A stretch of DNA of 64,000 bases, taken from the IMG/VR virus record IMGVR_UViG_3300029258_001887, one strand, 5' to 3'. The notes under the pieces are model-generated. The model saw nothing but the letters and a program-made list of their open reading frames with translations, made no database searches and was not told the DNA's origin. Each line of letters opens with the position of its first letter. Position 1 is the stretch's first letter. The stretch is from a virus. Below are positions 9,954-40,427 of the stretch, piece after piece. The position numbers were made by a program, and so were the translations under genes.

Positions 9954-10271
9954 ATGTGGCAAAAAACAACAGGACTTGACGGAGAGATTTACGATTCAAA
10001 ATCTGAAGCCGACGTGGCAGATTGGCTTCTTGTCAACGATATCGAATATGTGCCGCACAAACGACTACCAAAACCGAGCCGTAGTATCTGTGACTTTTAT
10101 CTACCTGAATACGATTTGTGGGTCGAATATGATGGGTTGATGGAGGTTCGTGCGGACAACAAGTTGGAACGAAAAAAGGCATTCTATGAGAAACACGGGT
10201 TGAAATTCTTGGTCATTACCAGAGATCATTGGCAAAGAGACTTACTGGAGCGGATAGAACTAGGAGGATAG
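9954..10271 (+). CDS. small PD-(D/E)XK endonuclease-like protein
   Basis: YDSKSEADVADWL...CDFYLPEYDLWVEYDG motif. Confidence 0.65.
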   Translation: MWQKTTGLDGEIYDSKSEADVADWLLVNDIEYVPHKRLPKPSRSICDFYLPEYDLWVEYDGLMEVRADNKLERKKAFYEKHGLKFLVITRDHWQRDLLERIELGG

Positions 10272-10272
10272 A

Positions 10273-10629
10273 ATGACGAAGAAACAAAATACCTTATATG
10301 GTGTTGTTGGTCTATTCATAGGTATCTTCGGAGGTATTGTCGGCACAGCATTCTCTATGGGGGCTGAAAAACAACGAGTTCAGGATGCAATTACGGCCAC
10401 AAACGTTCGTATCACCAACATGGAGGAAAAACAAGATGCCCATGAAACGGATGTCGAAAACGAAATGGACCGCTATGCTGAAATCATAGCGGCCCACATG
10501 ACTCAATTACAAGAGAATATCGCCCGCCTCAATAATACTGTTGGCGATTTGCGCACTGATGTCCATGTGCTAAAAGCACTGATGGAACGAATGGAGATTG
10601 ATCTGAAAGCAAGGAGCGCTCCAGACTAA
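10273..10629 (+). CDS. membrane-anchored coiled-coil protein (possible lysis/holin-like)
   Basis: N-terminal hydrophobic helix LYGVVGLFIGIFGGIVGTAF followed by coiled coil. Confidence 0.5.
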   Translation: MTKKQNTLYGVVGLFIGIFGGIVGTAFSMGAEKQRVQDAITATNVRITNMEEKQDAHETDVENEMDRYAEIIAAHMTQLQENIARLNNTVGDLRTDVHVLKALMERMEIDLKARSAPD

Positions 10630-11099
10630 CACCACCGGTACATCACTTCAATGGCACGACGCAACAGGGTGCTGAGGACACACGCCTCGCCCTTGCTGAT
10701 AGCGTGCTGTACCACAGTCTTCTCTTCCCCTCGCTTAACGCTCAGGTAGATACGGAACCTTCCGTGCTCGTCCTTCCCGAAGTACAACACAGCATTCCCG
10801 CTCTGGTTGGAGTGGAACAACCCCTTATGCTTGCCCTTCGATGCATCAAACGGGCCAATACCATCTTGGAGTCCCACCAGGACTGCCAAAAGCTCGCCGA
10901 TATCAGCATCGCCCAGCTTGAAGCGAATCTTGTTGTCCCAGTCGAAACGGGCGTTATTGTCGTCGTCCTTGCCCTTCTGGTTCGCCATCTCCAGGAAGAC
11001 GCAATCCTTTTTTGACCCCAGGTTCCACTGGGACGCAGCGCCGTTTCCGTCACCCTTCGCCTTGTAGAGCACAAAGCCCTTGCTGAATTCCTCAGCCAT
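10626..11099 (-). CDS. Whirly-like ssDNA-binding protein
   Basis: Colinear motifs FVLYKAK, VFLEMA, FDWDNKIRFKLGDADIGELL, LFH, IYLSV, ISKGEACVL...W match the plant Whirly domain pattern. Confidence 0.6.
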   Translation of the reverse strand: MAEEFSKGFVLYKAKGDGNGAASQWNLGSKKDCVFLEMANQKGKDDDNNARFDWDNKIRFKLGDADIGELLAVLVGLQDGIGPFDASKGKHKGLFHSNQSGNAVLYFGKDEHGRFRIYLSVKRGEEKTVVQHAISKGEACVLSTLLRRAIEVMYRWC

Positions 11100-12007
11100 T
11101 ACTCGTCTCCCTTCTGTTCCTTCATCTTCCGCATCTCTGTTGCGGCAGCAAGCGCGTCCTCGTAGGACAACGATTGCAGATTGACATCACCCGTTTGGTC
11201 GTTGAGTTCGTATTCGATTCCGAGTCCATCCAACACGTCCGAAATCTTGAAGCCGTGGCGGTCAGATATCAGACGAATCATGCTGATCTGGCTGGTGTGG
11301 ATCGGACCACCCTTTTGGATATCCGCAGCGGTCGCTACGGTCTTGCTCACCTCTTCAGCAGCCACTACACGCCGCAGACACAGGGCGTTGCGATACATCC
11401 TGCCTTTGGCCCGTGTGTCGGCCATAGCCACCAGATACGTGGCGTAGTCCTCAAAGCAGTTCTCGCTGTGTGCGTCGGCCAGGGCTTCGAATCGCTTCTC
11501 CCTGCCTTCGGGGGTTAGAAATACACCCCACGCTTTTGCACATGCGCGGAATCGGTTGTCCTCGGTAGGCGCAGCAAGCAGATCGCAGCCTTCCTCGATC
11601 AGTTCCCCGACGAGTTCGCCCGCGACACGCCTGAGCCCTTCGACCCGTGGATTCTGCCCATCCACTTCATCTTCCAGGAACTTCCCCAGCACATACTGAG
11701 TCCATCCCGGATCGCTTGGTGTTGGAGGATCAAGCTTTTCCGGCTGAGGTTCACCAGTGTCGGCCCCCTCATCTGTTGTGTCAGGCCCAACGGCAACGCC
11801 CACATCGTCATCTTCCTCAACAGAAGATAGAATGGCAAGACCTTCCTCGCCCTTTTTGTGGGCCTGAAGCTTGGCAAGCAACTCTGGTCGCTTGAGCTTT
11901 TTGCCGTCTGTGTCCAACAACTGCTCTTCCGTATAGCCGAGAGCCAATAGTGCATCCTTGAGTTCTTTCTTCCCCATCCGAGTTGGTGGTTTCGTCTCAG
12001 TCGTCAT
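11099..12007 (-). CDS. Rad52/Sak-like single-strand annealing protein (putative)
   Basis: AMADTRAKGRMYRNAL...VAAEE helix motif typical of Rad52-like annealases. Confidence 0.5.
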   Translation of the reverse strand: MTTETKPPTRMGKKELKDALLALGYTEEQLLDTDGKKLKRPELLAKLQAHKKGEEGLAILSSVEEDDDVGVAVGPDTTDEGADTGEPQPEKLDPPTPSDPGWTQYVLGKFLEDEVDGQNPRVEGLRRVAGELVGELIEEGCDLLAAPTEDNRFRACAKAWGVFLTPEGREKRFEALADAHSENCFEDYATYLVAMADTRAKGRMYRNALCLRRVVAAEEVSKTVATAADIQKGGPIHTSQISMIRLISDRHGFKISDVLDGLGIEYELNDQTGDVNLQSLSYEDALAAATEMRKMKEQKGDE

Positions 12008-12593
12008 TCTTCATCTCCGTTAACACAAACTTCGACAGTGCTTCGGCATCGCAGTCGGGGATTACCTCAGAACAAACCTTGATGCCAAATTCTTCTTCAA
12101 TCAGTTCCATGTGAGACTCGTGTCTCACAATGACTCGTACCCTTGGGTCACAAAATGCAGGTTCCAGTTCTGCGGGTTCAATGTGTGATTTGCCGATGAA
12201 TTCTGGATCGAAAGCATAGTGATAAACGATCGGTGCATTGCTGGCCAACGCCTCGATTGTAGTTCCAATACTTGTTGCGATGAGTGGATAGTGATGCCAT
12301 CTGACCAGATCGGAAACACCGAAAACTGGGCATAGAGGCGGTAGACATGAGGGGATCAGGTGTTGAGTGAAGATGCAAATGTCGAGACCCGCATATGTTT
12401 TACATAGTCGGTTGATTGAATTGAGCCCCAAGTATGTTAAATGAGACACCGCTAGGTGGTTGAAAACAAACCCGACCAGTGCTTGATCATCATCTAGCTT
12501 GAGACCAAGCTTAGCCATTTCTTCGGCAGCACTTGCCTTTCTTTGGACGGCTTCCTTGTGCTTGATGTTTTTCTGCTTTTTTTTCTTAGCCAT
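11997..12593 (-). CDS. hypothetical protein in glycosyltransferase cluster
   Basis: ORF overlapping both neighbours; no firm motif. Confidence 0.5.
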   Translation of the reverse strand: MAKKKKQKNIKHKEAVQRKASAAEEMAKLGLKLDDDQALVGFVFNHLAVSHLTYLGLNSINRLCKTYAGLDICIFTQHLIPSCLPPLCPVFGVSDLVRWHHYPLIATSIGTTIEALASNAPIVYHYAFDPEFIGKSHIEPAELEPAFCDPRVRVIVRHESHMELIEEEFGIKVCSEVIPDCDAEALSKFVLTEMKNDD

Positions 12594-13356
12594 TCGGAGC
12601 ACCTCTGCGCTGAGCCGCCATTTGCTTTGCTGCCGTCTCACACTGAGCAATAGATTGTTTAGTTGCTGCGTCTAGTTCACAAACGATATTGTGGTGTAGT
12701 GGTGCTGGTATGTGATAGATTAACCCAATTTCTGATATCCGAAGTAGCATGTCGTAATCGTCTCGAATTGGCATCTGAGCATTGAAACCGTTTTTGAGTT
12801 TAGGGAATAGTTGTGGACGCATCAGAAAGTTTCGGTCATAGGGGAATCCAGCCAAGAGTCTTTGCATGTCAAAAGAGCATCGGAACACTCTCTCTACTCT
12901 GCCATCGGGATGATGGTTATCGCAATCGCTCACGACACATGCAACTGATGGTTGTGTGCTGCAAACTCTAATCGCCTGTGCAATTTTGTCTGGTGCGTAC
13001 CAGCTTGTTGGGTCCATGAAACCAAACAGGGTAACACCCTGCCACTTCATTTGTAGTGCAACGTTCAGTGTGTCACCAATGGTGCTGAGTCTCTTTCGGA
13101 ATATTTTGACCGGTGTCCCATCAAGCTCACCGTCAAATTGCGGCGGCATTCCTGTTTGTTCGTCGATGGTGACAGGTTCGGCACCGAGCAATTTGCACAA
13201 TACATCATAGGTGCCGTCTGTGCTGTCATTGTCTCCGACGATGATCTGATTGGCCGGGCGGATACCCTTGCTTACTGATCGCAAGGCACGTTCGATTGTT
13301 TTGGCGTTATTGTGGGTTGCAATCACTACTGTTACGTTTTCTTTGTCTTTTATCAT
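12586..13356 (-). CDS. glycosyltransferase family 2
   Basis: VTVVIATHN...IERALRSV...IIVGDNDSTDGT N-terminal GT-A motif. Confidence 0.85.
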   Translation of the reverse strand: MIKDKENVTVVIATHNNAKTIERALRSVSKGIRPANQIIVGDNDSTDGTYDVLCKLLGAEPVTIDEQTGMPPQFDGELDGTPVKIFRKRLSTIGDTLNVALQMKWQGVTLFGFMDPTSWYAPDKIAQAIRVCSTQPSVACVVSDCDNHHPDGRVERVFRCSFDMQRLLAGFPYDRNFLMRPQLFPKLKNGFNAQMPIRDDYDMLLRISEIGLIYHIPAPLHHNIVCELDAATKQSIAQCETAAKQMAAQRRGAPNG

Positions 13357-15780: not shown

Positions 15781-16959
15781 TTATGCCTCCAGGAGTTCTC
15801 TTGCTATCGCACCTACTCGTTGGTAACTGAAGTTGGCAGCGCGTTCGCGGGCCGCTTTCTGCCGTCGATCTATCGATTCCTCATTCCATTCTTTGTAGGC
15901 TTGCCTCATGCAGTGGATCAGGTGTTCCATGTCTGGATCGAACCATAGTTCGTCGCCAGTGTAAAGGTCTGGGAAACTGTCTGTGTGTCCGAAACATGGC
16001 GTCAGTTGTCCTCTGACCAACCAGCCACAATCAATCTCACCCGGCCACTTGAATCTGCGGGTCTCTGGTTCCCAGTATTCCGCAGCCTGTGGATACGTCA
16101 ATTCCGGGAATGATCCCCAGTTGCTAAGTATTACTGGATTGCCAAACCCCATTGCGTCATGCGCCGGAATGCCCCAGGCTTCACCATGGCTCGCCAAAAC
16201 GAAAACGTCGCAAGCTACGTGAAGTTGATCAAGCTTCTGATCCGGCAGGAAATCGGTGATACAAGCTACGGGTGGATAGTACGGATGTCGGACATATGTG
16301 TGCAACGACTTTTTCACGTCGTCGATTGTTGACCGCAACAATTCGGTTGCTTCATCCGGGGATTTGCCAGGGACGCTGGTTTTGATGACGAGTGCCACAT
16401 CGTCCCTGAGACTGAATGCTGTGTAGAACGCCCTCAAGACCGCTACCAGATTCTTGCGACGAGTCATCTCTCCGACCACATAAAACACGCACTTGTTTTT
16501 GAGCTTCTTGACTTCCAGCGGTGGAGGGGGATTGTCAAATCTAGTCGTGTCACAAGCACATGGGAAAATCTTAACTGGCACAGAGACATTGCTATCCTTC
16601 ACTGCTTGGGCATTCTGTATCGATGGCACCCATATTTCGTCCATCAGATTACAACAGTGTCCCCAATTCGACCTGCTAAAGTGGGTCGTTTCCCAGTCGA
16701 ACATGCCTATGTTTCTAACACCAGCCTTGTATTCGAACTGGTGCGGCAATACGTGCTGAACGACAACATCCACGTTGTCGGTTGTTTTACGTTCAAGGTG
16801 CTCAACTCTCTTGGCCAGTTCATGGTTGCTATGCGGAGACAGTTTGATAGCTCTCGCTACGACATCTATACCACCAGCTTCCATGGCGAGCATGTTATGA
16901 ATAGCTTGGTTGGCATAGCCGGTACCATCACGATATACAGACAGGTATGCTACCTTCAT
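15781..16959 (-). CDS. glycosyltransferase family 4 (GT-B)
   Basis: RRKNL, DVFVLASHGEAWGIPAHDAMGFGNPVI. Confidence 0.9.
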   Translation of the reverse strand: MKVAYLSVYRDGTGYANQAIHNMLAMEAGGIDVVARAIKLSPHSNHELAKRVEHLERKTTDNVDVVVQHVLPHQFEYKAGVRNIGMFDWETTHFSRSNWGHCCNLMDEIWVPSIQNAQAVKDSNVSVPVKIFPCACDTTRFDNPPPPLEVKKLKNKCVFYVVGEMTRRKNLVAVLRAFYTAFSLRDDVALVIKTSVPGKSPDEATELLRSTIDDVKKSLHTYVRHPYYPPVACITDFLPDQKLDQLHVACDVFVLASHGEAWGIPAHDAMGFGNPVILSNWGSFPELTYPQAAEYWEPETRRFKWPGEIDCGWLVRGQLTPCFGHTDSFPDLYTGDELWFDPDMEHLIHCMRQAYKEWNEESIDRRQKAARERAANFSYQRVGAIARELLEA

Positions 16960-19838
16960 TATATCACCGTCACGTTTACTTGGTCCAGGGTCTCGCGTTT
17001 CAGGGATGCCAAGCGTTTTTCTTCGACGGCATTCGCCTGTTGTACCATCCCAACGAAGTGATCGACAAAATCTTTTCGGTTAAATGGGACACGTCGATCG
17101 CCAACGGTTTTTGAACCACTATTTAGGGACTTGAGCCATTCACCAGCAAAGTGGGTGCGCAGCATGTCGGGGCGATTCCACACTTTGCCGATCACCCAAT
17201 TGACAAATTCGCTATTGTTCATGTCGTTGCTTGGTGGTACTAAATTGGGATGATGGGCACGCGAGGTTGGGCACAGCCAAGTTGTTTGCTGATCCTTGAT
17301 GGCGGTTTCACGTATGACTTGACCCCAGATAGCAGCAGTCCTCTCCCACCCACGACGACGCATCGGCTGGTCTTGTCCGTAGGTCGGGACCGCTTCCTCG
17401 ATGTACGCCCTGGTCTGCCTTGCTTTTTCGTCTCGCACAGCTTCACTTTGTTTAAGGAATCGATCCAGCTTGCTAACAAAATCGGTGTTGCTTGGCAGTG
17501 CTCGTCTTTGCTCCGTTTCGATAATGGCTTCCCAGAAGAATCTCTCAACCTCGATCGGGATCGCTGTTGGACTATCCAGATGATCTTCCATCGCCGAGTA
17601 GCGGACAGCCATTGTTGGCACACCACACGCCTGGGCTTCTGTCAGCGGCATTCCCCACCCCTCGCAGATGGAATACTGGACATACAGGTCGAACGTCTTC
17701 ATAATATCAGCCAAGACGTTACGAGGACATGAATGGTTGGCGTTGGGCGGATGCGCTGCTAGCTTGCCACACTTACGACACACCATCATTTCGCCAGAGA
17801 AGAAAGATGGATAGGCAGTCTGGCAATTGCTGCACAGATAGGTCATGATTACCTTGTTCCCGATTTTGAAGTCTCGGATAGCTTTGCCGATGTCATACCC
17901 AACATCCGGGTAGCTGGTGTGCAAATACAGGAAAGTGCGTCGCGCCAGGTCTACATGCCCCTTGCTTTTCGATTGGTGCAACCACTTGCCGAAAGCCTCG
18001 ATCAGATCGTAATACAGCTTACGTTTTTGGTTTCTCATGACCGTACCCACAATTAACGATGTGGGATCGATACCGAGCCGAGCCTTGTGTTGCCGTTTGT
18101 CCTCTGGTGGCTTGAACATTTCGAGATCGGCACCTGGGGATGCGATTGTGACCAGATCGGTGCCACGTCTACCAGTTCGCTTCAGAAGGTCCATTCCATA
18201 TTCGGAGTACGTAAGGATGCGGTCGCACTGACGATATGAGTCCAGCCATAATTCTCGTTGTGGTTCACCGTCAATAGTCGGCATCCAGATAAATGAGAAA
18301 TTCTGACGGAAAGGCGAACGCAGAACAAATTCGTCCATCCACCAGTCTCGAATTCCGCAGTTATGTACAGCAAATCCTGTCACATAGCTATTATCATTTT
18401 CTACTTCTAAATTATATACTTGACCTCTGTATGGTTCTGTTCTTACTCTTCGAATTGGAACAATAATGTAATTCTCATTTATCCATCCGACACTCCCTTT
18501 GTCTATCCATTTGGGGTTATCCGATTTTCTCGAAGGTAATTCAAAATGTTTGGTAATAAACCCATGAGCAATACGTGCGTATTGTCCATAACATTCAATT
18601 TCAAATGATGTGGGCTTATTAAGTTTTCTGGCAATAGATGTTTTTACACCCAATCTTGCAAATAATTGTCTGATTTGTCTTGCTAACACATTGGAGACAG
18701 TAGAACAAGAAACTGTATCACTTTTATAACACCCATCTCCTTTTATATATCCACTAAGGAACTCTTCTAGGAATTTATCTCGTTGGGTAGTATACACAAA
18801 TTCTGGTATATGTTTTTCGCGCGCATTTTCACCAAACCAATTTTTGAACAATTCTTCAAGTAATACAGAGTTGAATCTTACATTTGAACAATTCTTGTTA
18901 GTGAATACTTGACCGTCTATTTTGAAATATTTTGACATCAATCGTAAAACATCTTCTATATATTCTTTCTCATTTACATTAAAAGAAAACTGCACACCCC
19001 TTCCTGAACCAGAACCTTCGGCACAATAATAACCTAGTAATCTACCAAAATCGCTTGAATACTGTATAAATTCAGGTATGCCGTTATCCCTTTCAAAGTT
19101 TTCATGACCTACTGGATAAGCAAATCCATCCTTGGTTATAAATTGCTTCAAAAAATGAGTAATTGAAATGTCTTGAGATGTCCAAACATTCGGCCTATAT
19201 ATAGGAATCAATACGTAGTCGCCTTGGCACAGGTCTTTCGCTTCTACAAATTCAGCATCTTCGGTGTTGTATCTCGACTGTATATCTCTTTGTTTCCATG
19301 TGCGTTTTTTGCTTTTTATGGCTAGAATGGGATGGTTGGGCGTAAACGTATAACACTGATTGTCATTATGTGGGTATATTTTCACCACAATGCCATTGTG
19401 TTGACTGCGCATGGTACGAATAACTCGACATTCTTTCCCAGTGTGAGAAATAACCGTGTCACCTACACTGATATCTTCGATATTTCTAACACCGTTTGGC
19501 GTTTCGACTTTTGTTTCAGGAGGAACACAAACAATGTCAGGCTTGAAGTCCAGGCACACATCGTCGAATCGCCATTCGCCAAATTGGTTGGTCTGTTGCG
19601 ACATGTACTTCTGCATTGCTTGCTGATTACTGCGAGCAGGTGCTACTGGATAAAACTTCCACGGCACTTGTTGACAACGTGGGTCGTCATCGTGGGCATA
19701 GCTTCCGAGTTCAGCAATTTCGAACTCACCTGTGGCATGTAGTCGTTTGATCACCTCATGCCAATAGGTACTAAAACCAGTGGCGAGGAAGTTTGCTTCA
19801 CCGATGAACAAAACGCGACGTTTGCGGTCAGATTCCAT
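16959..19838 (-). CDS. glycosyltransferase family 4 containing an intein
   Basis: MRNQKRK, DLYVQYSICEGWGMPLTEAQACGVP; interrupted at FKPDIV|CGIRD. Confidence 0.9.
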   Translation of the reverse strand: MESDRKRRVLFIGEANFLATGFSTYWHEVIKRLHATGEFEIAELGSYAHDDDPRCQQVPWKFYPVAPARSNQQAMQKYMSQQTNQFGEWRFDDVCLDFKPDIVCVPPETKVETPNGVRNIEDISVGDTVISHTGKECRVIRTMRSQHNGIVVKIYPHNDNQCYTFTPNHPILAIKSKKRTWKQRDIQSRYNTEDAEFVEAKDLCQGDYVLIPIYRPNVWTSQDISITHFLKQFITKDGFAYPVGHENFERDNGIPEFIQYSSDFGRLLGYYCAEGSGSGRGVQFSFNVNEKEYIEDVLRLMSKYFKIDGQVFTNKNCSNVRFNSVLLEELFKNWFGENAREKHIPEFVYTTQRDKFLEEFLSGYIKGDGCYKSDTVSCSTVSNVLARQIRQLFARLGVKTSIARKLNKPTSFEIECYGQYARIAHGFITKHFELPSRKSDNPKWIDKGSVGWINENYIIVPIRRVRTEPYRGQVYNLEVENDNSYVTGFAVHNCGIRDWWMDEFVLRSPFRQNFSFIWMPTIDGEPQRELWLDSYRQCDRILTYSEYGMDLLKRTGRRGTDLVTIASPGADLEMFKPPEDKRQHKARLGIDPTSLIVGTVMRNQKRKLYYDLIEAFGKWLHQSKSKGHVDLARRTFLYLHTSYPDVGYDIGKAIRDFKIGNKVIMTYLCSNCQTAYPSFFSGEMMVCRKCGKLAAHPPNANHSCPRNVLADIMKTFDLYVQYSICEGWGMPLTEAQACGVPTMAVRYSAMEDHLDSPTAIPIEVERFFWEAIIETEQRRALPSNTDFVSKLDRFLKQSEAVRDEKARQTRAYIEEAVPTYGQDQPMRRRGWERTAAIWGQVIRETAIKDQQTTWLCPTSRAHHPNLVPPSNDMNNSEFVNWVIGKVWNRPDMLRTHFAGEWLKSLNSGSKTVGDRRVPFNRKDFVDHFVGMVQQANAVEEKRLASLKRETLDQVNVTVI
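18360..19529 (-). mobile_element. intein with LAGLIDADG homing endonuclease (390 aa)
   Basis: Starts CVPPETKV; block B FTPNHPI; LLGYYCAEGS and FLSGYIKGDG; ends VYNLEV...VHN before Cys+1; DNA is AT-richer than the flanks. Confidence 0.93.
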
Positions 19839-20415
19839 AACCACTCCGTGACAGTTTGGGTCTCAGGCTTTTGGCCCTCGAATACCGTTGCTTCCGACTC
19901 AGGCCGAGATTATCAGAAGTCCCGCTGAACTTTGCCTGAAGAAAGGCCCGATCCTCCGCAGTCAAATCGCCAGACGACAAAAGGTCATCAAGAACAGAAA
20001 ACGGTTCTGACTCTCGCGTTGGCTCTTGAAATAGCATGTGCCAAGATTCCGCGAAGATGAGTGATCGTAGATGGGCAAGCGTGTTTAGGGTGATATTGAG
20101 TTCTTGACATATCTCACGCTCTGTATTGCCAGCGGCCAAGAGCATTTCGACTTTGTGTACCTGCTTTTTAACTCTACGCGGAGCAGACGCGGCGCACATC
20201 GCATCTAGGGCGGCGTTGCGCATTGTGTTGGCTATGGCCACAATGGCGTATGCCTGAAAATTGCGGTGATCATGTCCATCCCTGCTGATTTCTGCTAATG
20301 TAAGATGCCCGACTTGGATGTAGTCTTCCTCATCGGCACAATTGCTGGGATAAACAGTCGCAATTTTTTTCGCCAAACAGGCAATGAATTGGTTTAGCGA
20401 CTGCTTACGTTTCAT
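19828..20415 (-). CDS. sigma-70 family RNA polymerase sigma factor (divergent)
   Basis: Region-2-like EEDYIQVGHLTL...FQAYAIVAI; HTH-like EREICQELNI. Confidence 0.65.
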   Translation of the reverse strand: MKRKQSLNQFIACLAKKIATVYPSNCADEEDYIQVGHLTLAEISRDGHDHRNFQAYAIVAIANTMRNAALDAMCAASAPRRVKKQVHKVEMLLAAGNTEREICQELNITLNTLAHLRSLIFAESWHMLFQEPTRESEPFSVLDDLLSSGDLTAEDRAFLQAKFSGTSDNLGLSRKQRYSRAKSLRPKLSRSGYGI

Positions 20416-20428
20416 TCACGGACACTTC

Positions 20429-20845
20429 CTAGAACGGGATGTCGTCATCACCACCAGCCGGTGGTTCTGCCGGGGAAGTCGTAGCGCCCGCTGGCTGCGG
20501 TTCACTCTTCTTTTTCCCGTTCTTTTCGCACAACTGGAAATCGCGGAGAGTGATCGAGAACGAAACCCTCTTCTGGCCGTCCTTCTCCCACGAATCCTGC
20601 TTCATGTACCCACACACATAGATCGGCTGGCCCTTCTTGACGAGTTCTGCCATCCGGTCAGCGCGAGCACCCCAGACCTGAGCACGGAGGAAGCAAGGTT
20701 CCTGTTGCCACTTCTTGTCCTTGTCCTGGTAGCTCCGGTTGAAGGCCAAGCTGACGGTACATACCGCCGTATTGTTCTGTCCGACGTAACGTAGCTCCGG
20801 GTCTGCCGTCGCAACACCAACACCAAATACACCGAGTTCTGCCAT
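20429..20845 (-). CDS. ssb: single-stranded DNA-binding protein
   Basis: DPELRY, LAFNR, VWG..A, KGQPIYVCG; C-terminal DDDIPF. Confidence 0.95.
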   Translation of the reverse strand: MAELGVFGVGVATADPELRYVGQNNTAVCTVSLAFNRSYQDKDKKWQQEPCFLRAQVWGARADRMAELVKKGQPIYVCGYMKQDSWEKDGQKRVSFSITLRDFQLCEKNGKKKSEPQPAGATTSPAEPPAGGDDDIPF

Positions 20846-20886
20846 TTTCTTCACCTTTCGTGTTTAGAGATCAGTCCACTCTTCTT

Positions 20887-20920: not shown

Positions 20921-22768
20921 TTACATCAATTTTTGTATGTCGCGGATAATAAAACTGCCGTTCTTCTTCTGCCCGTAAATCAGACAGATCAAGTCATCCT
21001 TGCAAAATGCTTTCAGTCGTTCAAATACGTCAGGAAAAACAACCGCATGGTCGATTGAATAGGTCGAGTCGGATAGGGTCAAAAAGCACATCGGCTGACC
21101 CGGATTGCTTCCACGCTTGGTTTTTGTGTGCTTGACACCATCGATGATAGCACAAACTGCGATATCTTCGTTGTTGGGTGCCTTGGCAATCTCTAAGCAG
21201 GTGTGAGTCGCTAGACTGTCATCAGCGTCGTCTGCGGGAGAACACGACAGAGCTATCCCCAGGAAGTGCTTTTCTGCTGCCGCACTAGCCGTATTGCTGT
21301 CATCGAGGGGTGTTTCCAACATCGCTGCTTTGGCCGCTACTATTCTTCGTCGGGCATCGTTATTGCATGGTGGCTTCACTACCACATCTTGGTACCCATT
21401 CTGAACCATCAACTCTTCGATCTGTTTCTTGGTGCGATCCCCCAGAGTGTCCAGCCAAGCCTGCTTTTCTTCTGGGGACGTGTACACGAATTTACTGTCC
21501 CCGTCCACGATACCGTCGAACGCAGAACCGGCTTGGTCGAGATACCCGACCGCTGCGGCCACCAGTTCTTTCTTGACCATTTGGCCCATCGTCTTCGTTT
21601 TTTCGCCGGGGGGCTGGGCCATCTGAACTAGAATCTCTTGGGTGGTCATAGCACCCTGTTGTAACTGGTCGAAAAAGTACACTTTCTCTTTATTTGTCAA
21701 TCCTTTGACTTCAACTTTCTTGCCGGTGGCGTCGTGTGCGGTGGTGCCAAGAATGACTTCTAATTCTCGGACCATCTCGCTGCGACCCATTCCGTAGCAA
21801 TCACAGGCCCCCGATTTGATCAGGGCAATCCCAACATTCCTGTGGAAGTCTGGAACGGCTGCGAGGAAGCTGGCCCAAGTCTTCAGAGAGCCCGCTCCTG
21901 GCGTTGTAGAAGCCGCTGAGACGATCTTCTCGATGGCTGAGGCTCCGACACCCCTGACGTGCGCCAGGCCGAATGCTACGCCTTTCTGTGGTTCCTCGGT
22001 CATCTGGAAGTGGATGTTTCCACGGCGGATATCCGGGGGCAGAATGTCTACGCCGAACAGTCGGGCATCCTGTACCAGTTTATAAATTTCTTCCTTGGGA
22101 TCACCTTTGTACTGGGAGTAGGTGAGGTAGCTGGTGAAAAATTCGTGTGGGAAGTGGCACTTTAACCACGCGGTTTGGTAGGCGATCATCCCGTAGCTGA
22201 CGGCATGGCTTTTGTTAAACGAGTATCTCTGGCATTTTTCGATCCAGCCGAAGATTTCTTCTGCCACACCACGGGCAATATTCCCGTGCTCCTGAGCACC
22301 TTTGACGAATTTGTTCTTCAGCTTTGCCATGAGTTCCGGCTTTTTCTTGCCGATGGCCTTCCGAAGTTCGTCGGCACTCTCGGGGCTGAAACCAGCGATA
22401 TCTGTGGCGATACGGATGGCCTGCTCTTGGTAGACGAGGCAACCGTATGTGGGCTGGAGAATCGGCTTTAGAGATGGGTGTAGGTAGGATGGTTGCTTGC
22501 GACCGAATTTGATGTCAACGTAGTCTTGTGTCATCCCGGCCTCAAGTGGACCTGGACGGAGAAGGGCTGTGAGCGCAGCAAGTTCCTCTAGGCTATCAGG
22601 TCGGACTCTCTTGGCCCAATCCTGACCCAGTTTTTTTTCCAACTGGAAAACGCCCACCGTGTGGCCACCAGCGATCAGTCGCCATACAGCAGGACAATCC
22701 AGAGGGATATCGTTGATACTAAATTTACCCTTCTCGACATTGCACTTGCAATTGGTGAACTCGATCAT
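20921..22768 (-). CDS. dnaE: DNA polymerase III alpha subunit, C-terminal half (fingers, HhH, OB)
   Basis: IPLD, GVFQLE, ALLRPGP, YQEQ, LRKAIGKK, YSFNKSHA, LPPDI, EKHFLG, MCFLTLSD. Confidence 0.93.
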   Translation of the reverse strand: MIEFTNCKCNVEKGKFSINDIPLDCPAVWRLIAGGHTVGVFQLEKKLGQDWAKRVRPDSLEELAALTALLRPGPLEAGMTQDYVDIKFGRKQPSYLHPSLKPILQPTYGCLVYQEQAIRIATDIAGFSPESADELRKAIGKKKPELMAKLKNKFVKGAQEHGNIARGVAEEIFGWIEKCQRYSFNKSHAVSYGMIAYQTAWLKCHFPHEFFTSYLTYSQYKGDPKEEIYKLVQDARLFGVDILPPDIRRGNIHFQMTEEPQKGVAFGLAHVRGVGASAIEKIVSAASTTPGAGSLKTWASFLAAVPDFHRNVGIALIKSGACDCYGMGRSEMVRELEVILGTTAHDATGKKVEVKGLTNKEKVYFFDQLQQGAMTTQEILVQMAQPPGEKTKTMGQMVKKELVAAAVGYLDQAGSAFDGIVDGDSKFVYTSPEEKQAWLDTLGDRTKKQIEELMVQNGYQDVVVKPPCNNDARRRIVAAKAAMLETPLDDSNTASAAAEKHFLGIALSCSPADDADDSLATHTCLEIAKAPNNEDIAVCAIIDGVKHTKTKRGSNPGQPMCFLTLSDSTYSIDHAVVFPDVFERLKAFCKDDLICLIYGQKKNGSFIIRDIQKLM

Positions 22769-33562: not shown

Positions 33563-34510
33563 TTATGCCTCCGCTGGTTGACCGAGAGCTAACTGGCTTT
33601 CGCAATCCAGATTAGCGTAACGATCCTCTACGTATTCGCCGCCTAGTGTGTGTAGATCGCTCCACACACGGTGGCAGACGCCGTTTTTGTTGAAGTTACA
33701 CATTCGGCAAGTCCACCAACGATTACGTCTCATCAGGGTATCCTGTCGGATGGTTGTAAAGAAGCGGTGGAGTGCCGCTATTGTCATAGCAACATCTTCC
33801 TGGGACAAAGCAATGGTGACGGGGCCACCGTCATTGGTATAATAGAAGGTAATCAATATGTTTTTGTACTTTGGATAGAGGAAGTATGCTGCCAAGTGGT
33901 ACAACCTCGGCTGAACCTCCCTCATAAGCAAAGCTTCGTCGATGGGCTGTTGAGTGTAGAAATCTTTCCTGCTGCCTGTTTTCCAGTCTACAATCTCGAT
34001 GGTATCGGCGTCAATCTCGTGTACAAGGTCGATAAAACCACGCACGGTGAACTGGTGCAGTTTGCCATCTTTGTCGAGGCATTGCCATTCGTCGCCCGGC
34101 ATTTCAAGCGCAAACCACCGCTCGGCGTCAACCACATTGGGCAATTGATATGGATTGTAATATGGATCAGCCAACACTGTTTCTAGGGCGACCCGGCACT
34201 TCTTGAAGTCAGCCGCTTCTTTGAAGTCACCCGTATCTTTGTCTATGCGGGTGGTTACTTTGCGAATTTCGATATCTGATTTAGCCGTCAGTTCATCCCA
34301 CGCTCTATTGAGCAACCACATCGGGTCAACGTTCGTCTTGCCTCGCTTGCGCAGCTTAATCATCCACTCCAGAGCTTGGTGAACGATGCTCCCCTGGAGT
34401 GCCGCCTTGCCCGCTCTCGATTCCATGCCAAGAATATACTGCATGAAATACGAGAAGGGGCAATGGTTGTACAACCCAATTGCACTAGCGCTGCATTTAA
34501 CTACCCGCAT
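33563..34510 (-). CDS. PD-(D/E)XK exonuclease (Cas4/AddB-like, four Cys)
   Basis: SAS...CP, GSIVH..LE, RGFIDLV, IVDWKTG, Q..LY, CRMC...C. Confidence 0.85.
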   Translation of the reverse strand: MRVVKCSASAIGLYNHCPFSYFMQYILGMESRAGKAALQGSIVHQALEWMIKLRKRGKTNVDPMWLLNRAWDELTAKSDIEIRKVTTRIDKDTGDFKEAADFKKCRVALETVLADPYYNPYQLPNVVDAERWFALEMPGDEWQCLDKDGKLHQFTVRGFIDLVHEIDADTIEIVDWKTGSRKDFYTQQPIDEALLMREVQPRLYHLAAYFLYPKYKNILITFYYTNDGGPVTIALSQEDVAMTIAALHRFFTTIRQDTLMRRNRWWTCRMCNFNKNGVCHRVWSDLHTLGGEYVEDRYANLDCESQLALGQPAEA

Positions 34511-34898
34511 TGTCCTTCCCCTGCCGATTACGGTGAGCAAACCATTCCTTGACTCGCGGGGTGATGTCGTCCAAATCATCTCTGCCGCACTCCTGGAAAT
34601 GCATGATAGAATTGGCGTTGAAAACCACCGCCGCCAGATGGTCTTCGTCGGTTTCCCCTCGTTCAAAAGCGGCTACGTGCCTTTTCAGACTCGCCAAGAA
34701 CCGACTGAACGGCATTCCCTTCGCCCAGTTCCACTCGTCGTACTTTTTCGCACCGCCGCCATAGTGCAGGGCAACTCGTTGTTCTGCCAGCGGTGGTATT
34801 AAGTCAAACCGTGGTTTCCCATCATCGGTGTCACGAACTGCTCCACCATCGAAATTCTGTCGCTCCCCAGAATCTTTGATTTCAAACTGCTTCGCCAT
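34497..34898 (-). CDS. dATP/dGTP diphosphohydrolase-like protein (DUF5664-type)
   Basis: GAVRD...GKPRFDLIP, GAKKY..WNW.KG, SLKRH, EDHLAA..FN. Confidence 0.75.
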   Translation of the reverse strand: MAKQFEIKDSGERQNFDGGAVRDTDDGKPRFDLIPPLAEQRVALHYGGGAKKYDEWNWAKGMPFSRFLASLKRHVAAFERGETDEDHLAAVVFNANSIMHFQECGRDDLDDITPRVKEWFAHRNRQGKDNAGS

Positions 34899-38830: not shown

Positions 38831-39385
38831 TCACACCGGAATATCTTGGCCGTTGAATCTTGTTGTGACTCCAACAACTCCATCATACAAGTCGCACTGC
38901 ACTCCAGCCTCATGTAATACGTCCCATGCATCAGTAATAGACTTCACCCAGGTAGTGTGTGCCGATGCAAGCGCCATCAGTTGGGCGTGACCTACCACCC
39001 TGATTACACCGCCTTGAACAATCGCTTTGGCACATTCCGAACATGCATAGAATGGGCAGTATAGTGTTGCACCATGCACTACCTTTCCGTGTCGGGCTGC
39101 GTTGAAGATTGCTCCGTTTTCTGCATGAACAACCAGCCGATACTTGGTCTCTTTGTCTGTCAGACGCTTTTCGGTTTCGGCGACACCGGTCGGGAAACGA
39201 TTAACCCCATACGTTAACACATTCCCGTCTCTGCCGATTAAGACAGCGCCATTTTTTGTACTCGGATCGGGACTGGTTTCGTTGGCATGTTGATATGCCT
39301 CACTCAACAGCCTTCGGTCGGTCTCGCTCGTTGTTAGCGTTAGGGGGCGAGGCAACCATTCCAACCCTTTTCGGATATCACTCAT
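38831..39385 (-). CDS. dCMP deaminase
   Basis: S.DP.TK.GA, HAENGAI, CSEC. Confidence 0.9.
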   Translation of the reverse strand: MSDIRKGLEWLPRPLTLTTSETDRRLLSEAYQHANETSPDPSTKNGAVLIGRDGNVLTYGVNRFPTGVAETEKRLTDKETKYRLVVHAENGAIFNAARHGKVVHGATLYCPFYACSECAKAIVQGGVIRVVGHAQLMALASAHTTWVKSITDAWDVLHEAGVQCDLYDGVVGVTTRFNGQDIPV

Positions 39386-40427
39386 CTTCCTTTTCCTGCG
39401 GGAGCACAACGTCCCTTATCTCCGCTTCAAGCTGTTTCAGCTTGTCCGGGTGCTCTTTGAGGAAATTCGACAACCGAGCAAGCCCCTGGAATTTTGGTGG
39501 GTCACCTTCCCCGGCGAACATTGGGATTGAATACCATGCACCCGCCTTTTCAATCAACCCCAAATTTTCGGCTGTGATTACGATATCCTTGACCACATCG
39601 ATTCCTATGCCGTATCGCAACGGGAGGACGCATGGCAACAGCGGTCTTCCCATTGCTGATGATTGCACTGTGATGTGCATATCATGTCCATCGGGTGCGT
39701 TTGTTTCTGTGTTCCTTTCCCACTGTTGGGTCCAGGTAACTTTCAGCCAGACAGAACATGCATACTGAACAGCTACGCCACCCTTTTCGACGTACTTTGG
39801 GCCGCGTGGTTCACGGTTGCTCATCATCTGAGAGATGAAAATCAAAATCACGTCTTGTGCATCGACCATCTGTTGTGCCCGCCTGAAGAACGCGGACAAC
39901 AACTTAGCTGGACCAGCCATGTCTTTGCTGGAGCCGATCTGTTCTTCCTGTTCTGTCATTGTCGAAAGTGCGGCGATACTGTCAACAACAATGACCGCCT
40001 TCTTTTGTGTCTTGGCGATACGTTCGATGATATTCAGATAGTCTTCGGCAGTGAGCGGCTTGTCTATTTGATGGGGTACAACCTGGAGTTTCGCTGGGTC
40101 TAATCCCTGGATAGTCGCCAGCAGTGCAGGGGTACATCTCTTTTCGATGTTGATGTAGAATGTCGGACGCTCTAGTATCTGGGCGTTTTTGAGTAGTTCG
40201 AGGCAAAGTGTTGTCTTGCCGCTTTTCGGTTTCCCCGTGATAAGACATATCGTGCCATCCGGGATTCCACCGCTGAGCGCAATATCCAGAGATAACGGGG
40301 TGTTTAACACACCTCTGGATCGTGGCGGCAGTGCTTCGGACGCTGGTGCTATAATGCCGTCGCCGTGCATACGTGTTAGAAAAGCATCTAATGATTCACT
40401 GTCTATCTTGGGTTTCCTCTTAGCCAT
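39378..40427 (-). CDS. recA: RecA/UvsX-like recombinase
   Basis: SLDIALSGGIP, GKPKSGKTT, VVDSIAAL, IEKAGAWY. Confidence 0.9.
   Translation of the reverse strand: MAKRKPKIDSESLDAFLTRMHGDGIIAPASEALPPRSRGVLNTPLSLDIALSGGIPDGTICLITGKPKSGKTTLCLELLKNAQILERPTFYINIEKRCTPALLATIQGLDPAKLQVVPHQIDKPLTAEDYLNIIERIAKTQKKAVIVVDSIAALSTMTEQEEQIGSSKDMAGPAKLLSAFFRRAQQMVDAQDVILIFISQMMSNREPRGPKYVEKGGVAVQYACSVWLKVTWTQQWERNTETNAPDGHDMHITVQSSAMGRPLLPCVLPLRYGIGIDVVKDIVITAENLGLIEKAGAWYSIPMFAGEGDPPKFQGLARLSNFLKEHPDKLKQLEAEIRDVVLPQEKEDE

What the first reader, a model, noticed from the sequence alone, without database searches (positions are those of the whole stretch)
10626..12007. Phage Whirly-like ssDNA-binding protein coupled to a Rad52-like annealase
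Seen: the 157-aa protein follows the plant Whirly domain motif by motif (LYKAK ~ IYKGK; FDWDNKIRFKL..DIGELL ~ YDW.RKQ.FSL..TEIG; LFH; LSV; ISKGE..VL...W). It is TAATG-coupled to a protein with the Rad52-like MA.TRA..R..R.AL helix. Known: Whirlies are organellar ssDNA-binding proteins that restrain microhomology-mediated recombination. Inference: a two-gene annealing module additional to RecA/SSB, relevant to the origin of Whirly.
Basis: partly seen in the sequence, partly recalled or inferred. Interest (0 to 1): 0.72.

Follow-up and report, generated by a model that had tools for sequence, protein, structure and literature searches.

The report
Phage Whirly protein coupled to annealase
A 161-kb uncultured phage encodes a true relative of the supposedly plant-specific Whirly single-stranded-DNA-binding proteins directly behind a gene whose predicted fold resembles Rad52-type strand-annealing proteins, echoing the Whirly plus RAD52-like association reported in plant mitochondria; no function has been tested.

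Summary
Two minus-strand genes, 302 aa (11099-12007) and 157 aa (10626-11099), share a TAATG stop/start overlap.

The 157-aa protein belongs to the Whirly lineage. Pfam Whirly scores E 4.5e-4, just under the curated cut-off. A family profile finds only plant Whirly and trypanosome MRP chains in the PDB (StWhy2, E 8.6e-5). The AlphaFold model (pLDDT 88.8) superposes on AtWHY2 at Z 17.6, 1.9 A over 130 residues.

The 302-aa protein has no sequence family. Its model has a Rad52-like core, with RAD52 (Z 7.6) and phage Sak (Z 7.0) as top structural matches. A C-terminal domain resembles the Red-beta C-terminal domain. This evidence is moderate, because dsRNA-binding domains score almost as well.

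The pair is adjacent in 31 of 32 viral loci examined, down to about 31% identity. The phage also encodes RecA, an OB-fold SSB ending in DDDIPF and two PD-(D/E)XK nucleases.

The most likely reading is an SSAP plus ssDNA-binder recombination module, with a Whirly fold where an SSB gene usually sits. Whirly homologues also occur in 33 of 301 sampled genomes of one archaeal phylum.

This scan found the same pair earlier in at least 19 other genomes.

The parts
10626..11099 (-). 157-aa Whirly-family protein, a putative ssDNA-binding tetramer subunit. Predicted as two beta4-alpha repeats: strands 6-13, 21-28, 33-44, 50-52/58-62, helix 64-74; strands 94-98, 101-109, 115-123, 126-134, helix 136-153.
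   Evidence: ORF. Pfam Whirly E 4.5e-4. AF2 pLDDT 88.8, pTM 0.83. Foldseek top hits WHY1, StWhy2, WHY3, PBF-2 and MRP1/2. VIA Z 17.6 to AtWHY2. Family profile against the PDB: StWhy2 E 8.6e-5.
11099..12007 (-). 302-aa three-domain protein, a putative Rad52-superfamily single-strand annealing protein.
   Evidence: ORF. No Pfam or PHROG family. AF2 pLDDT 74.3. Structural matches. 177 homologues with E <= 1e-3.
11843..11980 (-). N-terminal helical domain of the 302-aa protein (residues about 10-55). It looks like a helix-extension-helix/SAP-type motif. It is absent from the distant homologues in L015 and L017.
   Evidence: Helices 13-22, 27-30 and 40-51 with pLDDT about 85. Its absence in distant relatives is seen in alignment A5. 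The SAP/HeH reading is from inspection only. One weak VIA match (6mzm_A, Z 5.8, 44 residues).
11726..11842 (-). Acidic, length-variable, predicted disordered linker (residues about 56-94).
   Evidence: pLDDT below 50 for residues 60-91. Insertions and deletions in alignments A2 and A5.
11372..11725 (-). Rad52-like core (residues about 95-212). Order of elements: helix 102-107, mini beta-hairpin 115-120, helix 122-132 carrying the invariant GLRR, three long strands 135-145, 155-164 and 170-179, then the crossing helix 189-208 carrying MADTRAKGRMYRNAL.
   Evidence: Secondary structure and pLDDT 82-95. VIA: RAD52 8tkq_A Z 7.6 over 116 residues; 5jrb_A Z 7.5; Sak 8pq8_A Z 7.0, rmsd 3.5, 106 of 128 residues; yeast Rad52 Z 6.7; Mgm101 Z 5.7; Red-beta NTD Z 5.5. 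The Foldseek top 10 are all human RAD52. Invariant residues.
11102..11308 (-). C-terminal small helical domain (residues about 234-302), resembling the partner-binding C-terminal domain of lambda Red-beta.
   Evidence: VIA: 6m9k_D (Red-beta CTD with lambda Exo) Z 6.0 over 59 of 67 residues; 8tfu_A (Red-beta CTD with SSB C-terminal peptide) Z 5.3; NinB 1pc6_B Z 5.8. The scores are middling, so this is a lead and not proof.
11097..11101 (-). TAATG stop/start overlap between the two genes, suggesting translational coupling.
   Evidence: Read directly from the sequence.
11107..11113 (-). AAGGGAG Shine-Dalgarno-like box, 7 nt upstream of the Whirly-like ATG, inside the end of the upstream gene.
   Evidence: Read directly from the sequence. 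Its function is inferred.
11997..12650 (-). 217-aa protein of unknown function (family F3), overlapping the start of the 302-aa gene. Homologues precede the pair in most distant loci.
   Evidence: ORF. No Pfam hit. blastp to F3 ORFs of L017, L023, L024, L026, L029-L033 and L036 at E 1e-12 to 3e-4. Block F3-F2-F1-F0 in 16 of 18 loci.
10465..10497 (-). Terminator-like hairpin (13 pairs, 7 G-C, then a T-rich tail), about 130 nt downstream of the Whirly-like stop. It may mark the end of the leftward operon.
   Evidence: Consensus scan only. It lies inside the convergent gene 10273-10629.
9954..10271 (+). 105-aa small Vsr/Hjc-like PD-(D/E)XK nuclease on the opposite strand, conserved next to the pair in the 14 closest loci. 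It may be the nuclease partner. Its membership of the module is unproven.
   Evidence: PHROG phrog_559 E 9.6e-9 and phrog_9019 'Holliday junction resolvase' E 1e-5. 73-90% identity in L001-L014. Only a weak motif-level match to the nuclease domain of family F2.
20429..20854 (-). Canonical OB-fold SSB of the phage, ending in GGDDDIPF. It is context, not part of the pair.
   Evidence: Pfam SSB E 2.1e-22. Translation.
39378..40427 (-). RecA-type recombinase of the phage. It is context, not part of the pair.
   Evidence: Pfam RecA E 9.2e-23 plus RecA_C.

Best explanation
The two genes form a co-translated ssDNA-handling module of a large uncultured tailed phage.

The upstream 302-aa protein is most likely a single-strand annealing protein of the Rad52 superfamily. 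It would have an N-terminal DNA-tethering helical motif, an acidic linker, a beta-sheet-plus-crossing-helix core that binds ssDNA through conserved Arg/Lys residues, and a small C-terminal docking domain.

The downstream 157-aa protein is a Whirly-family ssDNA binder. It most likely forms a tetramer, as plant Whirlies do.

Proposed mechanism: nucleases expose ssDNA during phage replication and recombination. The Whirly protein coats and protects it. The annealase then pairs complementary strands, for example in recombination-dependent replication, end joining of concatemers, or break repair. Here the Whirly gene occupies the position taken by an OB-fold SSB gene next to the SSAP gene in phage 80alpha.

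Shown: gene structure, Whirly homology and fold, conservation of the pair, and the presence of separate RecA, SSB and nuclease genes.

Inferred: ssDNA binding, annealing activity, oligomeric states, and any physical contact between the two proteins.
For: 1. Whirly identity: Pfam E 4.5e-4. 24 of 26 relatives hit Whirly. The family profile hits only Whirly or MRP chains in the PDB. Z 17.6, 1.9 A over 130 residues to AtWHY2, against Z about 8 for the next fold group, PUR-alpha.

2. Rad52-like partner: the element order is helix, mini-hairpin, helix, three strands of 10-11 residues, then a 20-residue helix. This matches the Rad52-superfamily description of a three-stranded sheet traversed by a helix plus a hairpin, with 29-37 strand residues and a 15-20 residue helix for Rad52, Erf and Sak3 (PMC11783212). 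The Foldseek top 10 are all RAD52. The top VIA matches are RAD52, Sak and yeast Rad52, with Mgm101 and Red-beta also listed and with the longest aligned lengths. The C-terminal domain matches the Red-beta CTD.

3. Coupling and conservation: TAATG overlap. The homologue lies directly upstream in 14 of 14 close loci, in L015 at 31% identity (hhalign E 2.8e-6, 192 columns), in L017 and in 15 of 15 loci of another subfamily (HMM E 1e-26 to 1e-52).

4. Precedent: in phage 80alpha the sak gene (PF06378) is followed by ssb, and the start of ssb coincides with the last base of the sak stop.

5. Plant parallel: WHY2 was purified with the RAD52-like ODB1 in mitochondrial nucleoprotein complexes, and both affect microhomology-mediated recombination (PMC9070903, PMC6981420).

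6. The phage has nucleases that could supply ssDNA: PDDEXK_1 at 33563-34666 and 44121-45134, and the small nuclease at 9954-10271.
Against: - The Rad52 assignment rests on a predicted model of moderate confidence (pLDDT 74). All Z scores are below 8, a range the tool itself flags as possibly just a common arrangement.
- dsRNA-binding domains, which are also alpha-beta-beta-beta-alpha, reach Z 6.2-6.8 on the same core.
- No Pfam or PHROG SSAP model matches any family member.
- hhalign against 80alpha Sak found nothing (probability 0.1).
- The predicted hairpin is only 2+2 residues long.
- Most loci with the pair also share wider synteny: glycosyltransferases upstream and structural genes downstream. 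Adjacency is therefore partly lineage inheritance, not independent association.
- Two Whirly-like loci lack the partner: L018 (viral) and L038 (archaeal). All ten archaeal loci examined also lack it.
- The phage already has an ordinary SSB and RecA, so the need for this module is unexplained.
Confidence: 0.58

Rival explanations
1. Same two proteins, but with an antagonistic relationship. The Whirly-like protein does not assist annealing. It restrains it, shielding ssDNA ends so that only long homologies are annealed. This would be a fidelity brake, like the one plant Whirlies apply to microhomology-mediated recombination.
For: Plant Whirlies limit microhomology-mediated rearrangements, and WHY2 is reported to block access to ssDNA 3' ends (PMC6981420, PMC6963530). 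The homology to plant WHY2 is the strongest PDB sequence hit. Coupled translation fits a fixed regulator-to-enzyme ratio.
Against: Nothing in the sequence tells help from hindrance. PMC6981420 also raises a mediator (helper) role for WHY2. The exact KGKAAL motif, needed in plants for higher-order assembly, is absent.
Confidence: 0.15
2. An RNA-handling pair. The 302-aa core is a dsRBD-like RNA-binding domain, and the Whirly-fold protein is an RNA binder or matchmaker like trypanosome MRP1/MRP2 or the jumbo-phage protein ChmC. Together they would act on phage transcripts and not on DNA.
For: dsRBDs match the core at Z 6.2-6.8 with rmsd 2.5-3.4 A. The nearest named Atlas cluster is a dsRBD-like family (0.87) ahead of SSAP_Sak (0.84). 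MRP1/2 match the Whirly-like model at Z about 16. ChmC is a Whirly-fold phage protein that prefers RNA (PMC11077065).
Against: - Rad52 and Sak align over 106-116 residues, including the elements N-terminal to the sheet. dsRBDs align over only 57-83 residues.
- The strands of 10-11 residues and the 20-residue helix look long for a dsRBD (from my own knowledge of the fold). They fall within the Rad52, Erf and Sak3 ranges (PMC11783212).
- At the sequence level the Whirly-like protein matches the plant ssDNA-binding Whirlies at significant E-values; MRP1 appears only at E 0.59. One of 52 family members weakly matches the Pfam MRP model, E 0.0021.
- The C-terminal domain resembles the Red-beta CTD.
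- In archaea the Whirly gene sits next to a DHH/DHHA1 gene in 4 of 10 loci; the two scanned are DHH or DHH/DHHA1 proteins, which I read as RecJ-like.
Confidence: 0.12
3. The two genes are neighbours by inherited synteny only and work separately. For example, the Whirly-like protein could be a nucleoid or DNA-compaction factor or a transcription factor, and the 302-aa protein an unrelated DNA-binding protein.
For: Wider gene order around the pair is conserved across these phages. Whirly-like genes exist without the partner in L018 and in archaeal genomes. Plant Whirlies also act as nucleoid architectural proteins (PMC9070903).
Against: - The 1-4 base overlaps or very short gaps persist down to about 31% identity.
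- In L015 the downstream neighbours differ (dUTPase) while the pair persists.
- Where extra ORFs intrude between the two genes (L004, L032), the order is still kept.
Confidence: 0.1

Closest known systems
Plant organellar Whirly proteins (AtWHY1/2/3, StWhy2, PBF-2 p24; Pfam PF08536; PDB 4kop, 4koo, 4koq, 3n1h, 1l3a)
   Same: They share the two-repeat beta4-alpha fold: Z 16.3-17.6, rmsd 1.9-2.5 A, 130-133 residues, 20-24% identity. Sequence homology is detectable by profile over the C-terminal two thirds, including the final helix and its terminal Trp.
   Different: - The phage protein is a bare 157-aa domain with no transit peptide and no C-terminal acidic/aromatic tail.
- The KGKAAL motif is not present as such. 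The sequence reads YKAKGDGNGAAS.
- It scores 20.5 bits, below Pfam's 23-bit cut-off.
- It is encoded by a phage and coupled to an annealase-like gene.
- Reviews call Whirlies plant-specific (PMC9070903, PMC6963530).
WHY2 with ODB1 (RAD52-1) in plant mitochondria
   Same: A Whirly protein and a Rad52-type ssDNA-annealing protein act on the same ssDNA. They were purified together, and both limit microhomology-mediated recombination (PMC9070903, PMC6981420).
   Different: In plants the two are separate nuclear genes, and they interact via DNA. Here they are one overlapping gene pair in a phage. The Rad52 likeness of the phage partner is structural prediction only.
Phage SSAP-SSB gene pairs, for example sak-ssb of Staphylococcus phage 80alpha (Sak = PF06378; PDB 8pq8, 8qe9)
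   Same: The annealase gene is immediately followed by an ssDNA-binding-protein gene, and the start of ssb coincides with the last base of the sak stop. Sak is the third-best structural match to the 302-aa core (Z 7.0). Cognate SSBs stimulate SSAPs (PMC5928155).
   Different: The downstream gene here has a Whirly fold, not an OB fold. The phage keeps a separate OB-fold SSB elsewhere. There is no sequence similarity to Sak.
Lambda Red-beta (N-terminal annealing domain plus C-terminal partner-binding domain; PDB 7ujl, 6m9k, 8tfu)
   Same: It has the same two-part logic: an annealing core followed by a small helical C-terminal domain. The core matches at Z 5.5 and the CTD at Z 6.0 and 5.3.
   Different: The scores are low, with no sequence similarity. 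No lambda-Exo/YqaJ-type exonuclease is found in the genome. The extra N-terminal helical domain and acidic linker are absent from Red-beta.
ChmC of chimalliviruses and the PC4-like protein of phage T5
   Same: Both are phage-encoded nucleic-acid binders with Whirly/PC4-type folds. The T5 protein is implicated in recombination-dependent replication (PMC11077065, PMC7549692).
   Different: ChmC has no detectable sequence similarity to known proteins, is built from beta-beta-beta-alpha repeats and prefers RNA. The T5 protein is a single-repeat PC4 dimer. The present protein is a sequence-detectable Whirly homologue.

Membership tests
Whirly (Pfam PF08536) | Sequence homology to the plant Whirly domain, detectable by profile search | tested here: met
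   Pfam E 4.5e-4 over profile positions 28-134 of 136. 24 of 26 close relatives hit, best E 1.8e-6. Family profile A3 finds StWhy2 at E 8.6e-5 and AtWHY2 at E 1.1e-3, and nothing but Whirly or MRP up to E 10.
Whirly (Pfam PF08536) | Score above Pfam's curated gathering cut-off (23 bits) | tested here: not met
   The window protein scores 20.5 bits and 19.4 bits in the genome scan. Relatives pass: L015 at 25.1 bits and archaeal homologues at 44.5-50.9 bits. This is an operational cut-off. I therefore file the protein as a divergent branch of the family, not as a canonical member.
Whirly (Pfam PF08536) | Fold of two four-stranded antiparallel sheets, each followed by a helix | tested here: met
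   AF2 model pLDDT 88.8. Z 17.6, 1.9 A over 130 residues to AtWHY2, with all ten top entries Whirly or MRP and the next group at Z about 8.
Whirly (Pfam PF08536) | KGKAAL motif of higher plants (ssDNA binding and 24-mer assembly) | tested here: not met
   The sequence has LYKAKGDGNGAAS. Across the family it reads YK(P/A)xK...G(A/S)A(S). The N-terminal profile finds no Whirly in the PDB. Green-algal Whirly-like proteins also lack KGKAAL (PMC9070903), so the motif defines the land-plant subgroup and not the fold.
Whirly (Pfam PF08536) | Homotetramer; binds ssDNA without sequence specificity | not testable with these tools
Rad52 superfamily of single-strand annealing proteins (Rad52, Sak, Sak3, Erf, Red-beta, RecT) | Three-stranded beta-sheet traversed by an alpha-helix | tested here: met
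   The model has strands 135-145, 155-164 and 170-179 (31 residues), then helix 189-208 (20 residues), with pLDDT 82-95. These values fall within the ranges given for Rad52, Erf and Sak3 in PMC11783212. This is a prediction, not a solved structure.
Rad52 superfamily of single-strand annealing proteins (Rad52, Sak, Sak3, Erf, Red-beta, RecT) | Accompanying beta-hairpin motif N-terminal to the sheet | tested here: inconclusive
   DSSP shows only a 2+2-residue hairpin at 115-120, inside the invariant segment DEVDGQNPRVEGLRR. Typical SSAP hairpins have 11-15 strand residues (PMC11783212).
Rad52 superfamily of single-strand annealing proteins (Rad52, Sak, Sak3, Erf, Red-beta, RecT) | Overall structural similarity to solved SSAPs clearly above unrelated folds | tested here: inconclusive
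   RAD52 Z 7.6 and 7.5, Sak Z 7.0, yeast Rad52 Z 6.7, Mgm101 Z 5.7 and Red-beta Z 5.5 lead the list with the longest alignments. dsRBDs reach Z 6.2-6.8 and all values are below 8. Foldseek E values are 7e-3 or weaker.
Rad52 superfamily of single-strand annealing proteins (Rad52, Sak, Sak3, Erf, Red-beta, RecT) | Sequence or profile match to a known SSAP family model | tested here: not met
   No SSAP family appears in Pfam or PHROGs for the window protein, 25 relatives, or the L015 and L017 homologues. hhalign against 80alpha Sak gives probability 0.1. SSAP families are known to be mutually undetectable by sequence, so this lowers the claim of membership in a named family, not the claim that it works like an SSAP.
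Rad52 superfamily of single-strand annealing proteins (Rad52, Sak, Sak3, Erf, Red-beta, RecT) | Ring or filament oligomers; annealing of complementary ssDNA | not testable with these tools
   This needs biochemistry or cryo-EM.
Phage SSAP plus ssDNA-binding-protein recombination module | Annealase gene immediately followed by a co-oriented ssDNA-binder gene, conserved across relatives | tested here: met
   TAATG overlap. The pair is adjacent in 31 of 32 viral loci examined. The same layout in 80alpha sak-ssb was checked.

The most novel reading that the evidence does not exclude
The phage pair is the prokaryotic-world counterpart, and possibly the evolutionary source, of the plant organellar Whirly plus RAD52-like (WHY2/ODB1) system. 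On this reading, Whirly proteins are not a plant invention. They came from a phage or archaeal ssDNA-binding lineage that already worked with a Rad52-type annealase, and were taken up by plants in the way the phage-type organellar polymerase, primase-helicase and RNA polymerase were.
Probability: 0.12. Interest if true: 0.85.

Novelty: new variant of a known kind. Interest (0 to 1): 0.66.

Why it matters
Reviews describe Whirlies as plant-specific or unique to plants (PMC9070903, PMC6963530). How they work with the RAD52-like ODB1 on organellar ssDNA is unresolved: PMC9070903 leaves open whether they compete or cooperate.

This finding shows three things:
- A large phage branch with sequence-detectable homology exists: 634 clusters at 50% identity.
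- An archaeal branch exists: 33 of 301 sampled genomes of one phylum. The three archaeal homologues scanned score 44.5-50.9 bits on Pfam Whirly.
- The phage branch is hard-wired to a Rad52-fold gene.

That gives a minimal two-protein system, easy to express in E. coli, for asking what a Whirly protein does to an annealase. It may also yield a new SSAP/ssDNA-binder pair for recombineering, and it gives material for rooting the Whirly family.

My searches of the held literature found no paper on phage or archaeal Whirly homologues. UniProt already carries an automatic 'Whirly transcription factor' label on an uncultured phage protein.

Tried and rejected
- Single-sequence phmmer of either protein against the PDB found nothing.
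- blastn and tblastn of both protein families against 50,697 GenBank phage records found no match. The family is therefore unknown among deposited phage records at that sensitivity.
- PHROGs gave no family for the Whirly-like protein, and only weak hits to families of unknown function for the partner.
- hhalign of the partner family against 80alpha Sak found no relation. I did not build a larger Sak or Rad52 profile.
- Complex prediction of partner residues 92-302 with the Whirly-like protein gave no verdict (score 0.00). This is not evidence for or against binding.
- The N-terminal-half profile against the PDB, run to test the KGKAAL equivalence, found no Whirly hit.
Distant full-length relatives of the partner were therefore not surveyed in that database.
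I used the search for related loci instead.
P0300 was not found in IMG/VR.
- I searched 274 family members for an SSB-like DDDIPF tip on the Whirly-like protein, following the lead in e1-5697969. None has it. One (P0319) ends in an acidic stretch followed by DLPF.
- A quick tree of 61 family members is poorly resolved. The archaeal sequences lie together with weak support, and there is no root because no plant sequences were available.
- I considered the idea that the ORFs are chance ORFs and rejected it. There are hundreds of conserved homologues.
Full report
**Observation**

The window holds two minus-strand ORFs exactly as flagged: 302 aa at 11099-12007 and 157 aa at 10626-11099. The junction reads GAG TAATG GCT. 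The stop of the first gene and the start of the second share one base, and an AAGGGAG box lies 7 nt upstream of the ATG. The 302-aa gene itself overlaps the end of the preceding 217-aa gene (11997-12650). A terminator-like hairpin follows the pair at 10465-10497. The pair therefore looks like the tail of a long leftward operon. The window is bases 73883-137882 of a 160,681-bp virus record judged 97% complete.

**The 157-aa protein is a Whirly homologue**

- Pfam's Whirly model matches at E 4.5e-4 (20.5 bits; curated cut-off 23) over nearly its whole length. 24 of 26 close relatives hit the same model, best E 1.8e-6.
- The AlphaFold2 model is confident (pLDDT 88.8, pTM 0.83). It shows two beta4-alpha repeats.
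- Foldseek ranks Arabidopsis WHY1 and WHY3, potato StWhy2, PBF-2 p24 and trypanosome MRP1/2 first, at probability 1.00.
- VIA-align gives Z 17.6, rmsd 1.9 A, 130 residues and 22% identity to AtWHY2. All Whirly and MRP entries score Z 15.7-17.6, and the next fold group (PUR-alpha) scores about 8.
- A profile of 52 diverse family members finds StWhy2 (E 8.6e-5), AtWHY2 (E 1.1e-3), then p24, WHY1, WHY3 and MRP1. No other PDB sequence appears up to E 10.
- The printed matches to StWhy2 and AtWHY2 cover the second part of repeat 1, all of repeat 2 and the last helix, down to its terminal Trp.
- The N-terminal half alone is not recognisable. The land-plant KGKAAL motif is not present as such.

**The family is large and not confined to phages**

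- A full HMMER scan of 1.84 billion cluster representatives finds 634 clusters at E <= 1e-3 and 358 at E <= 1e-10. The 150 best, the only ones listed, are proteins of 101-194 aa, mostly about 150-190. All are metagenomic and unnamed.
- No GenBank phage record matches.
- BFVD holds an uncultured-phage protein labelled 'Whirly transcription factor', at 28% identity. Databases have therefore labelled such proteins automatically. My searches of the held literature found no paper about phage or archaeal Whirly homologues, and reviews call Whirlies plant-specific (PMC9070903, PMC6963530).
- One hit in the species-genome collection was a contig titled Candidatus Micrarchaeota. It carries archaeal TFIIB and Trm1 genes.
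- Sampling 301 genomes of that phylum found a single-copy homologue in 33 of them, mostly at E about 1e-30.
- Three of these homologues score 44.5-50.9 bits on Pfam Whirly. That is higher than the phage proteins score.
- In 4 of 10 archaeal loci the gene lies directly downstream of a roughly 450-aa gene of one family. The two members scanned are DHH or DHH/DHHA1 proteins, which I read as RecJ-like; this fits a role on ssDNA.
- A quick unrooted tree puts the archaeal sequences together but is poorly supported.

**The 302-aa partner**

It has about 177 homologues but no Pfam, PHROG or PDB sequence match. Its model (pLDDT 74.3) has three folded parts separated by disordered linkers:

- Residues 10-55 form a small helical domain.
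- Residues 95-212 form the core: helix, 2+2 hairpin, helix (invariant GLRR), three strands of 10-11 residues, and a 20-residue helix carrying MADTRAKGRMYRNAL.
- Residues 234-302 form a helical bundle.

The core has the order and sizes described for the Rad52 superfamily (PMC11783212).

- The Foldseek top ten are all human RAD52, but at E of only 7e-3 to 2.5e-2.
- An all-against-representatives VIA search is headed by RAD52 (Z 7.6, 116 residues; Z 7.5) and phage 80alpha Sak (Z 7.0, rmsd 3.5 A, 106 of 128 residues). Yeast Rad52 (6.7), Mgm101 (5.7) and Red-beta (5.5) follow further down.
- dsRNA-binding domains, which share the alpha-beta-beta-beta-alpha order, reach Z 6.2-6.8 over 57-83 residues. 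The tool warns that Z below 8 can be a common arrangement.
- The C-terminal bundle matches the Red-beta C-terminal domain (Z 6.0 and 5.3) and NinB (Z 5.8).
- A protein-language-model search names a dsRBD-like family (0.87) and SSAP_Sak (0.84) as the nearest annotated clusters. Both are leads only.
- hhalign against 80alpha Sak, confirmed as PF06378, found nothing.

I rate a Rad52-superfamily fold at about 0.7. Membership of any named SSAP family is not shown.

**Conservation of the pair**

- All 14 close viral loci (57-92% identity) keep 217-aa gene, partner, Whirly-like gene, and then the two opposite-strand genes. In L004 a 208-aa ORF sits between the two genes without breaking the order.
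- The distant L015 locus (31% identity, 176-kb contig) has a 274-aa ORF overlapping the Whirly-like start. It aligns to the partner family over 192 columns at hhalign E 2.8e-6. Its downstream neighbour is a dUTPase.
- L017 has a 218-aa homologue ending two bases before the Whirly-like ATG.
- In 15 further loci from another subfamily, every one has a partner homologue directly upstream, at HMM E 1e-26 to 1e-52.
- Only L018 among viral loci lacks it. The archaeal loci all lack it.
- Most of these phages also share broader synteny, so the loci are not independent samples.
- In 16 of 18 distant loci the block is F3 (217-aa family), F2 (about 260 aa: HTH, NUMOD3, DUF559/Vsr-like nuclease), partner, Whirly-like. 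The window's clade lacks F2 but keeps a 105-aa Vsr/Hjc-like nuclease two genes away, at 9954-10271.

**Context in the genome**

The phage also encodes a RecA-type recombinase (39378-40427). It has an OB-fold SSB (20429-20854) ending in GGDDDIPF, and two PDDEXK_1 nucleases (33563-34666 and 44121-45134). It has no YqaJ-type exonuclease. Each gene of the pair is single-copy.

**Mechanism**

The closest functional template is the SSAP-SSB gene pair of temperate phages. In 80alpha the sak gene is followed by ssb, with the ssb start on the last base of the sak stop, and cognate SSBs stimulate SSAPs (PMC5928155). Here a Whirly-fold protein sits in the SSB position.

A second template is plant mitochondria. 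There WHY2 was purified with the RAD52-like ODB1, and loss of either raises microhomology-mediated recombination (PMC9070903, PMC6981420).

I therefore propose that the Whirly-like tetramer coats ssDNA produced during phage replication or recombination, and that the 302-aa protein anneals complementary strands. The C-terminal domain may dock a partner: the Whirly protein, a nuclease, or the DDDIPF tip of the phage SSB. The last idea comes by analogy with Red-beta CTD structure 8tfu and is inference only. Whether the Whirly protein helps or restrains annealing cannot be told from sequence. A complex prediction gave no verdict.

**Verdict**

- The Whirly reading is supported.
- The Rad52 reading is moderately supported by predicted structure and context.
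- The function is untested.
- In kind, this is a new variant of the known SSAP plus ssDNA-binder module. It also extends a family described as plant-specific into phages and archaea.
- The scan's notebook shows the same pair reported earlier in at least 19 other genomes. My results were obtained before I read those notes, and they agree.

Noticed in passing
L041-L050 (archaeal genomes G047, G221, G001, G271, G250, G138, G078, G140, G294, G243): Single-copy Whirly homologues occur in 33 of 301 sampled genomes of the phylum of a Candidatus Micrarchaeota MAG. The three scanned score 44.5-50.9 bits on Pfam Whirly. In 4 of 10 loci they lie directly downstream of a roughly 450-aa gene of one family; the two scanned are DHH or DHH/DHHA1 proteins, which I read as RecJ-like. 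None has the Rad52-like partner nearby.
   Followed up: partly
L015:2420-3178, L023:1721-2494, L024:1767-2552 and equivalents in 16 of 18 distant loci: A roughly 260-aa protein with an N-terminal HTH, a NUMOD3-like motif and a C-terminal DUF559/Vsr-like nuclease domain sits between the 217-aa-family gene and the annealase-like gene. It looks like a free-standing homing endonuclease, yet it is conserved in position at 28-35% identity, so it may be a working nuclease of the module. It is absent from the window's own clade.
   Followed up: partly
window 9954-10271 (+): A 105-aa small PD-(D/E)XK (Vsr/Hjc-like) nuclease. PHROG names for it include HNH endonuclease and Holliday junction resolvase. 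It is 73-90% identical in all 14 close loci, more conserved than its 118-aa neighbour.
   Followed up: partly
window 10273-10629 (+): A 118-aa protein with an N-terminal hydrophobic segment and a coiled coil. It has weak PHROG hits to Rz-like spanin and holin families. It converges on the Whirly-like gene, and their ends overlap by 4 bases (10626-10629).
   Followed up: no
L004:3375-4001; L032 between 3014 and 3477: Extra ORFs are inserted between the two genes of the pair in some relatives: 208 aa in L004 (Cys-rich, no Pfam hit, possibly a homing endonuclease) and 166 aa in L032. The TAATG coupling is therefore not universal.
   Followed up: partly
window 16959-19844 (-): A 961-aa glycosyltransferase interrupted by an intein with a LAGLIDADG endonuclease (Hint, Intein_splicing and LAGLIDADG_3 hits). 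It lies inside a long cluster of glycosyltransferase, epimerase and related genes that starts right upstream of the pair.
   Followed up: no
window 20921-22768 (-): A 615-aa ORF carrying only the finger and HHH domains of DNA polymerase III alpha (DnaE). This suggests a split or intein-interrupted dnaE whose other part lies elsewhere.
   Followed up: no
window 20429-20854 (-): The phage's OB-fold SSB ends in the canonical bacterial tip GGDDDIPF. This points to a bacterial host. It is also a possible ligand for the Red-beta-CTD-like domain of the 302-aa protein.
   Followed up: partly
BFVD entries A0A172Q074, G9B1W3, G9B1V9, W5QUH6: Several cultured phages carry unannotated proteins that Foldseek matches to this Whirly-like model at probability 1.00: Acinetobacter ME3, Bacillus W.Ph. 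gp208 and gp212, and Bacillus BPS10C. The fold seems common in phages beyond this family.
   Followed up: no
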